Shown: one piece after another, positions 39,001-42,000 of the stretch | Layout of the letters: each line of letters starts with the position of its first letter | Position numbering within the stretch: position 1 is the stretch's first letter | Source: an uncultured Desulfospira sp. | GTDB taxonomy: Bacteria; Desulfobacterota; Desulfobacteria; Desulfobacterales; Desulfobacteraceae | Direction of reading: 5' to 3' | DNA length: 64,000 nucleotides | Assembly (NCBI GenBank): GCA_963663165.1 | Contig: OY760175.1 | Span: 5,216,001-5,280,000, forward strand | Made by a program: the position numbers

Positions 39001-42000
39001 GTTTACCTTTCAAAAATGGATGGACAGTCTTTCAATCGTGCCCACCATCAAGGCCATTAACGACAAGATGGCCCAGATTGTGGAAATGGAGGTTGACAAA
39101 ACCATTGCCCATCTTGGCGATCTGTCCGAAGAGCAAATCAATGCCATACAGCGGATGACCCGGGCCATTGCCTCCAGGGCCATGCATGACCCCATCAAAT
39201 TTTTGCGCAATATCGGCGACCACCGGAATGATTCCCTTTATCTGAATGTCACACGGCAGTTGTTCAATCTGGATATGAAAGAATAAGTTGGCTTTACTTT
39301 TCAGGGTTTGGTGATATAATACTTCATTTGAGTATCCTTCAGCACAATATAATAAAAGGGACAATGATCATGAAAGAAGAAGATCTGAAGTATTTTAAAA
39401 CTCTTTTAACGGACAGGCTCAATGAGCTTTTGTCCCATGCTGACAGTACGGTGGAGGGGATGACCAAGCCAAAGGAGAATTTCGCCGATCCCACAGACCG
39501 GGCATCCCACGAAGCGGAAAGAAGTTTTGAACTGCGGATCAGGGACCGTGAGCATAAACTGATTAAAAAGATAAAAAAAGCCCTGGTAAGGATTGAAAAC
39601 GGAACCTTTGGCGTCTGTGAAGTCTGTGAGGAAGATATCTCCATTGAACGGCTCAAGGCCAGGCCCGTGACCACCCATTGCATTGACTGCAAAACCAGGG
39701 AAGAAGATATGGAGAAAGCGCTCGGCCTTTAACGGGCTTTGGGAAAGACCCTTGATTGACCTTCACATACATTCTACCGCTTCTGACGGCTCTTTTACCC
39801 CCCTGGAAATTCTGAGCCTTTCAAAGGATAAGGGCCTTGAGGCCATCTCTTTGACCGATCACGATACCATTGAGGGAATCAGGGCAATTCATGAACATCT
39901 TCACTGCTTTTCCTTAGAGTTTATCTCCGGGGTCGAACTGTCCTGCACCCCACCTGAAGAATTCAAACGCGCTGGCAGCGTCCACATGCTTGGTTACGGG
40001 TTTTCCGTCTATGATACCCGGTTAAACCATTTGCTTGAAGAGGCAAAAGCCGCCAGAGAACAACGCAATTCAAAAATTATCAAAGCCCTGAATCAGATTG
40101 GCGTTCATATCAGCCTTAAAGAGGTCGAGGACCGGTTCGGCGCAGAACAGACCGGCCGCCCCCATATTGCCGAGCTTCTTAAAGAAAAGGGCGTGGTTGA
40201 CAGCTTTGACCAGGCCTTTAAATTATACTTAGGACAGGGCAAACCCGGGTATGTGGATAAATATAAAGTTTCCTGCGAAACAGCCATTCAGGTCATTACC
40301 GATGCCGGCGGGGTTCCGGTGCTGGCCCATCCGGGGCTGCTCAGACTCGACACCGACAGTGAGCTGGCCGCCTTTGTCCAAAAACTTGCCGGGTACGGTC
40401 TTCAGGGGATTGAAGTCTTTTATACAGACCATGATTCTGAACGAACGGCCTTTTTTAAGTCCCTTGCCGAACAAAACAAGCTGTTAACCACCGGTGGATC
40501 GGATTTTCACGGCACTTTTAACGCCGGGGTTGAACTGGGCACGGGCAAGGGAAATCTTGACATCGGGTTTGGCCTTTTCCAGACCCTGGCCAGGCGGGCA
40601 GCCTCCATCAGGACCCTTCACGTCCGGCTGGACATCCTTGAATCCAACTTAGGATACCGGTTTATTGACCGGCCGCTTTTGGAAAATGCCCTGTGCCACC
40701 GGTCCTACCTGAATGAAAATCAGAAAACCTGTTCATCGGACAACGAGCGCCTTGAATTTTTAGGGGATGCGGTCCTTGGCCTGTGTGTGGGCCATATTCT
40801 CATGAAAAGCAATCCGGATAAAAAAGAGGGCGACCTGTCAAAGCTTCGGTCCAGCCTGGTTTCAGAACCTGCCCTGGCCGACATGGCCAGAAAGATTGAC
40901 CTTGGGCGGTTTGTCCGGCTTGGAAAAGGGGAGGCCGTGTCGGGCGGGGCGGATAAAGATTCCATCCTTTCCGATGCCTTTGAGGCCTTGATGGCCGCTG
41001 TTTACCTGGATTCCGGGTTTGAGCGGACCTTTGAACTGGTTCAGGGCCTGTTTTCCCCCTGCATTGAAACGGCAGAGTCCAGCCTGCAAATCAGCGATTA
41101 TAAAAGCGCCCTCCAGGAGTATGCCCAGGAGGCGTGGTCGGTGACGCCGTCTTACACCCTGTCCGGCGAGATGGGGCCGGACCACGACAAAATTTTTGAA
41201 ATCAGCCTGGAACTGCCCCATATCCGGTCCACCGGTTTCGGAAAGACCAAAAAGGCAGCCGAACAGGAATCGGCCAGAAATGCCCTGGAACAGATTTACA
41301 GCGAACGGGACCAAAGCGCCGGATAAACAAAGGGTAACCGAAAAAGAATGGAGACCGGATACGGGAAGCGGGAGACCGGATGTTGCGAATCCCTTAGGGT
41401 TACGCATTCCGGTCTGCGGTCTCCTTTTCTCGGGTTTTCCACCATTTAAAGGTCTTGTATCATGAACCGGAAAAAAGATGCCCCCCTTGTGATTCCGGTT
41501 TTTATTCCCCATTCAGGATGTCCCCATCGTTGCGCCTTCTGCGATCAGTCCATTATTACCGGGCAGGCGTGTTCGTCTCTGGAACCCATTGATTTAAAGT
41601 CAATTATTGAACAATACCTTAAGTTCAGGGGCGACCGCTCAAGGGTGGAGCTGGCCTTTTTCGGAGGGAACTTTCTCGGGCTTGACCCCCGGGAAATGAT
41701 CGGGCTCCTGGAACAGGCCGCACCGTTTATAAAGGACGGCCTTATTCATGGGATCCGATGCTCTACCCGGCCTGATACCATTACCCCCAAAACCCTGGAC
41801 ATCATCAGTCCCTATGGGGTGTCCCTGGTAGAACTCGGGGTTCAGTCCATGGATGATGCCATTCTATCCCGTCTCCATCGCGGACATACCGGGGATCATA
41901 CCCGTAAGGCCCTTGGGCTGCTCAAACAATATGGCATTCAAAGCGGGGTCCAGGTTATGGTGGGACTGCCCGGGGAGGCCCGGGAGGGGGTGGTCAACGG

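What a model noticed while it worked through the whole genome (the two positions that open the first line are those of the whole stretch)
39752..41326. RNase III fused to a TrpH/YciV-type PHP phosphoesterase (RNase AM family)
The only RNase III gene of the genome (g04462, 524 aa) carries a ~290-aa N-terminal PHP domain of the TrpH/YciV family, whose characterised members are RNase AM (the 5'-3' exoribonuclease that trims the 5' ends of 5S, 16S and 23S rRNA in E. coli) and 3',5'-nucleoside-bisphosphate (pAp) phosphatases. In other Desulfobacterales the two genes are neighbours in the same order and in several they are one reading frame, so the endonuclease that opens the rRNA precursor stems and a candidate 5'-end trimming enzyme are physically or at least operonically coupled in this order.
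Evidence so far: pfam.tsv: PHP (aa 3-144), Ribonucleas_3_3/Ribonuclease_3 (307-431), dsrm (450-514); N-terminal 290 aa vs NCBIfam: 3',5'-nucleoside bisphosphate phosphatase E 2e-55 (188 bits, below cut 400), RNase RNM E 9e-49 (166 bits, below cut 375) over nearly the whole model length; Swiss-Prot hits cover only aa 293-515 = RNase III; no other Ribonuclease_3 gene. Six-frame search in 25 other Desulfobacterales genomes: both halves found in 23; in one open frame without stop in 5 (G005, G008, G010, G016, G017), same frame separated by 1-2 stops in 7, adjacent on one contig in 8 more, on different contigs in 3; 2 genomes matched with the RNase III half only. Papers: 'ribonuclease III'+'PHP domain'+fusion 0 p [...]
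(Added by a program. Inside this text positions count along the whole contig: contig position 5,216,001 is position 1 of the stretch shown here. "Call 12" and the like, gene names such as g00115 and contig names such as C1 are that model's own, and its searches are not shown. The text may have been shortened before it was handed on; [...] marks where a part breaks off. The agent that wrote the report below was given it as the finding of a first reader that could run no searches.)

Follow-up and report, generated by a model that had tools for sequence, protein, structure and literature searches.

The report
PHP nuclease fused to RNase III
This sulfate-reducer-type bacterium makes its only RNase III as one protein joined to an RNase AM-like metal phosphoesterase domain; the fusion is real and conserved, but a 2020 paper already mentioned it and its activity is still untested.

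Summary
Window 39752..41326 (+) is one stop-free 524-aa gene: a TrpH/YciV-type PHP domain (aa 1-268), a short helical connector, then a complete class-1 RNase III (catalytic domain plus dsRBD). It is the only RNase III in the genome. All PHP metal ligands and all RNase III catalytic acids are intact. The fusion is near-universal in the window's GTDB family: 104 of 121 genomes.

The wider pattern is a conserved four-gene cluster, dksA - PHP - rnc - radical-SAM, throughout the order and not seen outside it. Within it the PHP/rnc boundary is usually two genes (81 of 90 loci, often with overlapping stop and start) and fused in scattered lineages with unrelated linkers.

Jain 2020 (PMC7261194, Discussion) already states that RNase AM paralogs are fused to RNase III in some delta-proteobacteria, with the same rRNA idea. 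An earlier follow-up of this scan on another genome reached the same verdict.

Membership in RNase AM is not shown: the score is below the equivalog cut-off, and Arg201 of the E. coli enzyme is Leu here. Four sampled genomes have lost the PHP gene yet keep dksA-rnc.

Verdict: real, ordinary in its clade, already in print, mechanism open.

The parts
39293..39320 (+). Promoter-like site (TTTACT-16-TATAAT with TG) just upstream of dksA. It is a possible start of the dksA-PHP::rnc-rSAM transcription unit.
   Evidence: This is weak evidence: 6 sites were found in the scanned region against 4.0 +/- 2.2 in shuffles.
39367..39732 (+). dksA (RNA polymerase-binding protein DksA, 121 aa), ending 20 nt before the fusion gene.
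   Evidence: TIGR02420 144.2 bits against a cut-off of 115.5. Pfam DksA_N plus zf-dskA_traR. dksA sits directly upstream of PHP in 93 of 96 order loci, with a median gap of 16 nt.
39752..41326 (+). The fusion gene: 524 aa, TTG start, stop codon included.
39752..40555 (+). PHP domain of TrpH/YciV type (aa 1-268). Metal ligands: H5, H7, D12, H37, E62, H78, H193, D251, H253. Also R102, R105, R136 and F156.
   Evidence: Aligned to 2yb1, 7ug9, 3e0f and 9etk. The listed residues are invariant in 59 fused proteins and are kept in 97 or 98 of 98 fused, split and outgroup rows. The fold matches 3e0f, 2yb1 and 7ug9 at TM 0.85-0.87.
40556..40627 (+). Connector (aa 269-292): a C-terminal PHP helix (273-289), then about 3 residues before the first RNase III helix (293-300).
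   Evidence: AF2 secondary structure, with pLDDT 80-89 across residues 281-300. Other fused lineages have unrelated connectors of differing length, up to about twice as long.
40628..41086 (+). RNase III catalytic domain (aa 293-445), with the NERLEFLGD signature and the acidic residues E332, E335, D339, E359, D408 and E411.
41099..41293 (+). dsRNA-binding domain (aa 450-514).
   Evidence: Pfam dsrm 50.3 bits. An alpha-beta-beta-beta-alpha fold appears in the model.
41462..42541 (+). Radical SAM gene (359 aa) with Radical_SAM and Radical_SAM_C domains. It is ELP3/MnmL-like but below both cut-offs. It is the fourth member of the conserved cluster.
   Evidence: It lies directly downstream of rnc in 77 of 87 order loci. 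The same family is fused to RNase III in P0265.

Best explanation
The gene encodes a bifunctional RNA-processing enzyme. Shown: an ordinary class-1 RNase III (catalytic domain plus dsRBD) carries at its N-terminus a TrpH/YciV-type PHP phosphoesterase. That domain has a complete three-metal site and the same 5'-phosphate/base pocket residues as RNase AM and Cv1693. The gene sits in a cluster, dksA - PHP - rnc - radical SAM, that is conserved across the order. Inferred: the RNase III part dimerises and cuts double-stranded stems, such as the 23S leader-trailer duplex and the stems of the 23S intervening sequences present in this genome, leaving 5'-monophosphate ends. The tethered PHP domain then acts on 5'-phosphorylated RNA made by those cuts. 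It either trims the few extra 5' nucleotides of the rRNA or degrades the excised fragments 5'-to-3'. The fusion itself arose by loss of the stop codon between two tightly packed, probably translationally coupled genes. It keeps the two activities at 1:1 and close together.
For: Both halves are intact. The nine PHP metal ligands, R102/R105/R136 and F156 are invariant in 59 fused proteins and in 97-98 of 98 fused, split and outgroup rows. They align with E. coli RNase AM H13, D20, H45, E72, D255 and H257 (their roles are from PMC9410882 passages). F156 aligns with F154 of Cv1693, called strictly conserved in PMC11528712. RNase III scores above its equivalog cut-off with all catalytic acids present. 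It is the only RNase III in the genome.

Characterised relatives of the PHP half are 5'-P-dependent 5'-3' exoribonucleases (PMC7261194 and PMC9410882), and 5'-P is the end RNase III leaves (recalled).

Linkage: the PHP gene is directly upstream of rnc in 90 of 96 order loci. The distance from the PHP stop to the RNase III domain start has a median of 50 nt. A possible rnc start lies within -10..+20 nt of the stop in 39 of 81 split loci and overlaps it in 15. The fusion is kept in 104 of 121 family genomes. On the tree, fused forms need 8 changes of state, and well-supported branches force at least 2. Their linkers are unrelated, and two keep an internal Met where rnc normally starts.

Neighbours are RNA-related: dksA in 93 of 96 loci and an ELP3/MnmL-like radical SAM gene in 77 of 87.

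Candidate substrates exist. A near-perfect 23S leader-trailer duplex of about 45 bp runs on from helix 1, and two of the three 23S genes carry stem-bounded insertions, one holding a TIGR02436 gene.

AF2 gives pLDDT 90.9 and pTM 0.79 with a confident short connector. I read this as a defined PHP-RNase III orientation, though I could not see coordinates.
Against: No activity has been measured for any member.

The PHP half scores 164 and 185 bits against cut-offs of 375 (RNase RNM) and 400 (pAp phosphatase), so the substrate is open. E. coli Arg201, which contacts the sulfate at the scissile position, is Leu here and is never Arg in the clade.

In E. coli the link to RNase III is indirect. RNase AM removes only the last 3 nt, late in assembly, and another enzyme removes the first 4 nt after the RNase III cut (PMC7261194). 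RNase III leaves 5' ends recessed in a duplex (recalled), and Jain found 23S 5' trimming to depend on prior 3' trimming.

The genome also has RNase J (609 bits), another 5'-3' exonuclease candidate.

Four sampled genomes (G016, G030, G122, G135) keep dksA-rnc but lack the linked PHP gene. Three of them hold only the distant paralogue and G122 holds none. The partner is therefore dispensable.

Most of the order (81 of 90 loci) manages unfused. Fused linkers vary in length and sequence, so a fixed geometry is not required. The AU test for a single origin of all fused forms is borderline (p 0.0499).
Confidence: 0.5

Rival explanations
1. The PHP half is a housekeeping nucleotide-clearing enzyme: a 3',5'-nucleoside bisphosphate (pAp) phosphatase and/or a diribonuclease/nanoRNase. 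It is merely co-expressed with RNase III and does not act on RNase III's large products.
For: The best NCBIfam hit of the PHP half is the pAp phosphatase model (185.1 bits, against 164 for RNase RNM). The closest solved relative, 2yb1, is the Cv1693 enzyme with bound AMP and phosphate. RNase AM was described as having enhanced activity toward pAp and less toward longer substrates, and the P. aeruginosa enzyme as an oligoribonuclease that can replace Orn (PMC11528712 passages). In this genome no CysQ is above cut-off (85.8 against 228.8). No oligoribonuclease is found (21.5 bits against 106). No clear NrnA is found: DHHA1 above cut-off occurs only in open frames of 878, 595 and 890 aa, and the 305-aa candidate matched no NCBIfam model.
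Against: This does not explain why the gene is locked to rnc, dksA and an RNA-type radical SAM gene throughout one order, or why it is fused repeatedly. Four genomes lost it, which is odd for the sole pAp or dinucleotide scavenger, although a paralogue remains in three of them. The score is far below the equivalog cut-off.
Confidence: 0.3
2. The fusion as such is a near-neutral accident. Two genes whose stop and start overlap or nearly touch are easily joined by a stop-loss or frameshift. The joined form drifts in and out without adding function beyond that of the operon.
For: The junction is tight in split genomes: 15 of 81 have overlapping stop and start, and 39 of 81 have a start within -10..+20 nt. 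Fused forms are scattered (8 changes of state on the tree). Their linkers are unrelated and of differing length, up to about twice as long, and two keep a relic Met. 81 of 90 order loci are unfused. States differ within single GTDB families: in f73, G314 is fused while G192 and G308 are not.
Against: One fused lineage has been kept across a whole family: 104 of 121 genomes, down to 49% identity. Its connector is short and confidently modelled. This argues at least for tolerance and probably for benefit. The rival does not address what the PHP enzyme does.
Confidence: 0.3
3. The PHP enzyme belongs functionally with dksA rather than with rnc. It would hydrolyse a 3'-phosphorylated guanine nucleotide of the stringent response (a ppGpp, pGpp or pGp-type compound).
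For: Only position supports this. dksA is directly upstream in 93 of 96 order loci with a median gap of 16 nt. Relatives hydrolyse 3',5'-bisphosphonucleotides (the name of NF041577).
Against: dksA stays next to rnc where PHP is lost (L189, L190, L193, L194), so the dksA link does not depend on PHP. PHP fuses with rnc, never with dksA, in the 96 loci. I know of no PHP-family alarmone hydrolase (recalled).
Confidence: 0.05
4. The single frame is an artefact: a sequencing or assembly error joined two genes.
For: None found.
Against: Stop-free full-length matches occur in 104 of 121 family genomes from independent assemblies and in 120 listed database clusters. A same-genus genome is 94% identical over residues 1-524 (G012).
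Confidence: 0.01

Closest known systems
'RNase AM paralogs ... in fusion with RNase III' in some delta-proteobacteria (Jain 2020, NAR 48:5616, PMC7261194, Discussion; read)
   Same: It is the same architecture in the same group of bacteria, with the same proposal that several rRNA-processing steps may be done by one enzyme.
   Different: The paper gives one sentence with no data, taxa, residues or context. The following are added here and are not in that text: the operon (dksA-PHP-rnc-rSAM), the spread (order-wide pair, scattered fusions), the PHP losses and the Arg201 difference. I did not read its supplements.
E. coli RNase AM (YciV/TrpH; PDB 7UG9) and V. cholerae RNase AM (9ETK)
   Same: The PHP fold matches (TM 0.87 and 0.79 normalised to the target). 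All six metal ligands of the E. coli enzyme that PMC9410882 names (H13, E72, D255, D20, H45, H257), the arginines at the phosphate pocket and the wedge Phe are kept.
   Different: Identity is 22-27% in the structural alignment. The score is 164 bits against an equivalog cut-off of 375. Arg201 is replaced by Leu196. The known enzymes are free-standing, and in E. coli yciV is not next to rnc (recalled). Activity is untested here.
Cv1693 of Chromobacterium violaceum, a 3',5'-nucleoside bisphosphate phosphatase (PDB 2YB1)
   Same: It is the best PDB sequence match of the PHP half (E 4.2e-27, residues 2-264), with TM 0.85. The metal site is the same, and R99, R102, R134 and F154 align with R102, R105, R136 and F156.
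   Different: The score is 185 bits against a cut-off of 400. Cv1693 has Arg after the HPG motif and the window protein has Leu. Cv1693 is a single-domain enzyme.
Bacterial class-1 RNase III (Rnc; e.g. T. maritima 1O0W, E. coli 7R97, A. aeolicus 2EZ6)
   Same: The C-terminal 232 aa are a full member: TIGR02191 239 bits against 166.25, 44% identity to 1O0W in the structural alignment, with signature, catalytic acids and dsRBD present.
   Different: It carries a 290-aa N-terminal enzyme domain. It is followed by a radical SAM gene, not by era as in the outgroup genomes G246 and G259.

Membership tests
Class-1 bacterial RNase III (TIGR02191) | Score at or above the equivalog cut-off over the whole model. 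| tested here: met
   239 bits against 166.25, model positions 2-219 of 219.
Class-1 bacterial RNase III (TIGR02191) | Signature motif and catalytic acidic residues (E. coli E38, E41, D45, E65, D114, E117; numbering recalled). | tested here: met
   NERLEFLGD is present with E332, E335, D339, E359, D408 and E411. E335, D339, E359 and E411 are invariant in 98 rows.
Class-1 bacterial RNase III (TIGR02191) | One catalytic domain followed by one dsRBD. | tested here: met
   Pfam Ribonucleas_3_3 at 307-431 and dsrm at 450-514.
Class-1 bacterial RNase III (TIGR02191) | Homodimer through the catalytic domain. | not testable with these tools
No coordinates of the model were accessible.
PHP domain superfamily (PF02811) | Pfam gathering score, and His/Asp/Glu ligands of the trinuclear metal site. 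| tested here: met
   37.9 bits against 26.4. H5, H7, D12, H37, E62, H78, H193, D251 and H253 are invariant.
RNase AM / RNase RNM (NF047791 equivalog) | Score at or above the curated cut-off. | tested here: not met
   164 bits against 375. In the own-genome search it is 166.3 bits, flagged 'no' for over cut-off.
RNase AM / RNase RNM (NF047791 equivalog) | Arginine after the HPG motif (E. coli Arg201) contacting the sulfate/phosphate at the scissile position. It is present in the E. coli, V. cholerae and C. violaceum enzymes. | tested here: not met
   It aligns with Leu196. Across 98 rows the position is L 84, S 7, T 2, F 2, V 1, gap 2, and never R. The role of Arg201 is from PMC9410882 passages. 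Whether it is strictly defining is my judgement.
RNase AM / RNase RNM (NF047791 equivalog) | 5'-phosphate pocket arginines and the base-stacking Phe. | tested here: met
   R102, R105, R136 and F156 are invariant in 98 of 98 rows. They align with R99, R102, R134 and F154 of 2yb1. F154 is 'strictly conserved' per PMC11528712.
RNase AM / RNase RNM (NF047791 equivalog) | 5'-P-dependent 5'-to-3' exoribonuclease activity, and maturation of rRNA 5' ends. | not testable with these tools
   This needs enzyme assays and 5'-end mapping. No RNA run was listed for this DNA.
3',5'-nucleoside bisphosphate phosphatase (NF041577 equivalog) | Score at or above the curated cut-off. | tested here: not met
   185.1 bits against 400.
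PHP-RNase III fusion of delta-proteobacteria (as mentioned by Jain 2020) | An RNase AM-like PHP domain and RNase III in one reading frame, in a member of the former Deltaproteobacteria. | tested here: met
   Named relatives include Desulfobacula toluolica, Desulfobacter postgatei, Desulfotignum and Desulfospira joergensenii.

The most novel reading that the evidence does not exclude
dksA - PHP - rnc - radical SAM is a dedicated ribosomal-RNA maturation module of Desulfobacterales whose products work as one physical assembly on nascent pre-rRNA. RNase III cuts the leader-trailer and intervening-sequence stems, the PHP nuclease trims the new 5'-P ends on the spot, and the ELP3/MnmL-like radical SAM enzyme modifies the same RNA. 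On this reading, the scattered PHP-RNase III fusions here and the RNase III-radical SAM fusion elsewhere (P0265) are Rosetta-stone traces of that complex.
Probability: 0.2. Interest if true: 0.6.

Novelty: already known. Interest (0 to 1): 0.35.

Why it matters
If the tethered PHP domain does trim the ends that RNase III makes, this would be a natural one-chain enzyme combining an endonuclease and a 5'-3' exonuclease for rRNA maturation. It would be a handy system for asking how the two steps are ordered and coupled, which in E. coli needs separate enzymes and an unknown third one. It would also assign a cellular role to a large, unassigned branch of TrpH/YciV PHP proteins. The order-wide dksA-PHP-rnc-rSAM cluster, and the independent fusion of the same radical SAM family to RNase III, point to further untested partners of RNase III. 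As it stands the fusion is a known, uncharacterised architecture, so the value lies in the leads, not in discovery.

Tried and rejected
1. Complex prediction (PHP half against RNase III half) was not available, and nothing was folded.

2. Transcript evidence: no RNA holder was listed.

3. The search for related loci on genome contigs was swamped by the universal RNase III motif. It did give named genera: Desulfatibacillum and Desulfamplus are fused, and Desulfatitalea is split in frame.

4. I first read the 'open_frame_aa' values of 549-612 as fusions with long linkers. My own stop-to-stop check showed stops between the halves in all of these but G162, which is fused. That reading is withdrawn.

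5. Programmed read-through of in-frame stops is rejected. The same-frame share is 25 of 81, about chance, and ordinary ATG starts follow the stops.

6. The apparent split genes in G008 and G024 are contigs ending just after the PHP half, so they are no evidence of a split.

7. A single origin of all fused forms is neither shown nor cleanly rejected: AU p 0.0499, log-likelihood difference 71, on a quick tree of 47 of my 98 rows (12 fused, 30 hand-picked split neighbours, 5 outgroups). Starred branches force only 2 changes or more.

8. Literature searches for 'rnase iii' + 'php domain' + 'fusion' and 'ribonuclease iii' + 'php' + 'desulfo' gave 0 papers. The mention was found through 'RNase AM'/'YciV'.

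10. The promoter/terminator scan found no more sites than the shuffles.
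Full report
**1. What is in the sequence**

The + strand is open from 39683 to the stop at 41326. 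The called start is TTG at 39752. It lies 20 nt after the stop of the upstream gene and follows a GGGAAAG stretch. The 524-aa product (P0001) begins M/L-IDLHIHS, where most homologues also begin.

Pfam finds four domains:
- PHP at 3-144
- Ribonucleas_3_3 at 307-431
- Ribonuclease_3 at 332-422
- dsrm at 450-514

NCBIfam gives three relevant scores:
- RNase III equivalog: 239 bits, cut-off 166.25
- pAp phosphatase NF041577: 185.1 bits, cut-off 400
- RNase RNM NF047791: 164 bits, cut-off 375

Both PHP models are matched over almost their whole length. The genome holds one RNase III, this one, and a second, more distant PHP gene of 300 aa.

**2. Both halves look active**

The PHP half aligns end to end with four solved proteins:
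- Cv1693 (2yb1)
- E. coli RNase AM (7ug9)
- the B. adolescentis protein (3e0f)
- V. cholerae RNase AM (9etk)

H5, H7, D12, H37, E62, H78, H193, D251 and H253 are invariant in 59 fused proteins. They are kept in 97 or 98 of 98 fused, split and outgroup rows. Six of them align with H13, D20, H45, E72, D255 and H257. PMC9410882 (passages) names these as the Mn ligands of E. coli RNase AM and shows that D20A, E72A and D255/H257A kill its activity.

R102, R105, R136 and F156 are also invariant. F156 aligns with F154 of Cv1693, which PMC11528712 (passages) calls strictly conserved and base-stacking.

There is one difference. E. coli Arg201 forms a salt bridge to the sulfate at the scissile position. 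It aligns with Leu196 and is never Arg in the 98 rows. The RNase III half has the NERLEFLGD signature and all catalytic acids.

AF2 on the 59-row alignment gives mean pLDDT 90.9 and pTM 0.79. It predicts a helix at 273-289, a three-residue break and the first RNase III helix at 293-300, and pLDDT stays at 80-89 across the junction. Foldseek matches the two halves separately to RNase AM/Cv1693-type and RNase III structures. No PDB chain covers both.

**3. How widespread it is**

All 120 best relatives listed by the search for homologous proteins are 490-551 aa, 59-100% identical, and cover 93-100% of the query. Of these, 113 carry both PHP and RNase III Pfam marks. Named sources include Desulfobacula toluolica, Desulfobacter postgatei, Desulfotignum and Desulfospira.

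In the library of 1.84 billion representatives clustered at 50% identity, only four full-length fusions (P0122, P0123, P0125, P0126) and one fragment appear among the best 150. The architecture is therefore confined to a narrow clade.

In the window's GTDB family, the 121 genomes searched break down as follows:
- 104 have one stop-free match spanning both halves.
- 6 (one genus) have a stop-free match across the junction but an insertion near PHP residue 200. I did not check that insertion for stops.
- 2 (G016, G030) have RNase III without PHP.
- 2 end at a contig edge.
- The remaining 7 are fragments or show only the paralogue.

**4. The order-wide pattern**

In a sample of 110 other genomes of the order, spanning 89 GTDB families, 107 have a match. 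I fetched 96 of those loci and classified them by stop-to-stop frames and domain HMMs. The 14 genomes I did not fetch were:
- three with the halves on different contigs
- eight with edge, partial or unlisted matches
- three with no match

Of the 96 loci, 90 hold both halves in the order PHP then rnc. Nine are fused, 25 are split in the same frame, and 56 are split in another frame.

The same-frame share (25 of 81) is what chance gives, and ordinary start codons follow the stops.

The junction is tight. The PHP stop lies a median of 50 nt before the RNase III domain. A possible rnc start lies within -10..+20 nt of the stop in 39 of 81 loci and overlaps it in 15.

Outside the order the two genes are never neighbours. 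In 0 of 74 other genomes of the phylum are they closer than about 72 kb on one contig. In outgroups rnc sits beside era. The 'class' sample contained only this order.

**5. Fusion history**

I built a tree from the concatenated halves: 98 rows, with five outgroup genomes whose genes are unlinked. L188 and L190 were dropped for weak PHP.

| Measure | Result |
|---|---|
| Changes of state for fused forms, FastTree (98 rows) | 8 |
| Changes of state, IQ-TREE quick run (47-row subset) | 8 |
| Minimum forced by well-supported branches | 2 |
| AU test holding all fused rows together | 71 log-likelihood units worse, p 0.0499 |

Several origins, or several fissions, are therefore likely but not proven. 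Independent hints agree. The connectors of the fused lineages are unrelated and differ in length, up to about twice as long. Two of them (L111, L113) keep a Met where rnc normally starts, as expected after loss of a stop codon.

**6. Context**

dksA is directly upstream in the window: TIGR02420 scores 144.2 bits against a cut-off of 115.5. The same holds in 93 of 96 order loci, with a median gap of 16 nt.

A radical SAM gene with Radical_SAM and Radical_SAM_C domains, ELP3/MnmL-like and below both cut-offs, follows rnc in the window and in 77 of 87 loci. The five outgroup loci show neither neighbour.

The same radical SAM family is fused to RNase III in P0265: 38% identity over 342 aa, E 5e-88. 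It also follows rnc in 8 of 77 unrelated rnc loci from Syntrophales, Geotalea and Clostridia-type genomes.

Four genomes (G016, G030, G122, G135) have dksA directly followed by rnc, with no PHP or only a 23-bit remnant. A whole-genome search there finds only the distant paralogue (29-34% identity) in three of them, and nothing in G122, which is 96% complete.

**7. Candidate substrates in this genome**

The 23S leader and trailer of one operon cofold into a near-perfect duplex of about 45 bp that runs on from helix 1 (-125.8 kcal/mol). Two of the three 23S genes are 537 nt longer. They carry two insertions bounded by inverted repeats. One insertion encodes a TIGR02436 four-helix-bundle protein (114.8 bits), the family typical of 23S intervening sequences. 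From memory, RNase III excises such sequences in other bacteria. These are plausible places where RNase III makes 5'-P ends that need trimming. Nothing here shows that it happens.

**8. Reading**

The safest statement is that this is a bifunctional protein whose two active sites are both conserved, encoded in an RNA-centred operon. The most likely mechanism (about 0.5) is that the PHP domain works on 5'-phosphorylated RNA produced by the attached RNase III.

Points against this reading:
- The sub-threshold family scores and the Arg201-to-Leu change.
- In E. coli, RNase AM acts late and only on the last three nucleotides, while another enzyme removes the first four after the RNase III cut (PMC7261194).
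- This genome also has RNase J.
- The PHP gene has been lost in four sampled genomes.

The main rival (about 0.3) is a pAp/dinucleotide-clearing role. This genome lacks a CysQ or an oligoribonuclease above cut-off, and RNase AM is known to have such activities (PMC11528712). A further, non-exclusive reading is that the fusion event itself is a near-neutral consequence of overlapping genes.

**9. Novelty**

The fusion and the rRNA idea are in print. [quoted passage not shown] Searches on 'RNase AM'/'YciV' plus 'RNase III' found no follow-up work. An earlier follow-up of this scan on another genome (e1-5257078) reached the same conclusion.

I did not find the following in those texts:
- the order-wide four-gene cluster
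- the scattered fusions with unrelated linkers
- the PHP losses
- the Arg201 difference
- the parallel RNase III-radical SAM fusion

I read no supplements of the cited papers.

Noticed in passing
Own genome outside the window: G000:C1:3717946-3721456 and 1023205-1026715 (L226, L227), compared with 2124092-2127065 (L225): Two of the three 23S rRNA genes are 537 nt longer than the third. They carry two insertions bounded by inverted repeats, about 123 nt after 23S position ~622 and about 414 nt after ~1252. The larger one encodes a 117-aa TIGR02436 four-helix-bundle protein (L226:3249-3602, minus strand), as in known 23S intervening sequences.
   Followed up: partly
P0265 (584 aa, metagenome protein); loci L017, L021, L025, L027, L029, L035, L061, L063: RNase III is fused at its C-terminus to the same radical SAM family as window gene 41462..42541 (38% identity, E 5e-88). 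The same radical SAM gene also follows rnc in Syntrophales, Geotalea and several Clostridia-type genomes. This looks like an uncharacterised RNase III partner with a wider spread than the PHP link.
   Followed up: partly
L189 (G135), L190 (G122), L193 (G016), L194 (G030): dksA is followed directly by rnc, with gaps of 30-47 nt in three of them. In L190 the gap is 187 nt and holds a 23-bit PHP remnant. The linked PHP gene has been deleted. Only a 29-34% identical paralogue remains elsewhere in three of the genomes, and none was found in G122.
   Followed up: yes
P0241, P0129, P0133, P0180, P0194, P0236, P0225: Other RNase III architectures appear among the representatives: MazG pyrophosphohydrolase plus RNase III (P0241), an HTH domain plus RNase III (P0225), and proteins with two or three RNase III catalytic domains in tandem.
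   Followed up: no
G000:C1:5717795-5718616 (L003:1489-2391): A second TrpH-like PHP gene (300 aa; PHP plus PHP_C; 103 bits to the pAp phosphatase model and 90 to RNase RNM). A counterpart at 29-36% identity is present in many genomes of the family and order.
   Followed up: partly
Genus g2 of the family (G020, G033, G052, G068, G085, G089) and L018 (Desulfamplus sp.): An insertion of about 25-55 aa splits the PHP match near residue 200, in the variable loop after the HPG motif. In L018 the whole gene is still one stop-free 563-aa frame.
   Followed up: partly
RNase III halves of the 98 tree rows: The position aligned with catalytic D408 (E. coli D114, recalled) is Asn in 20 rows, Gly in 4 and Arg in 1, while the other acids are invariant. 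This is either tolerated natural variation or local misalignment.
   Followed up: no
window 36341-39286 (+): Upstream of dksA lie a siroheme synthase N-terminal-domain gene (TIGR01470), a CcsB-like cytochrome c biogenesis gene just below its cut-off (176.3 against 187.6) and hemA (TIGR01035). hemA is also next to dksA in G003 and in Desulfamplus.
   Followed up: no
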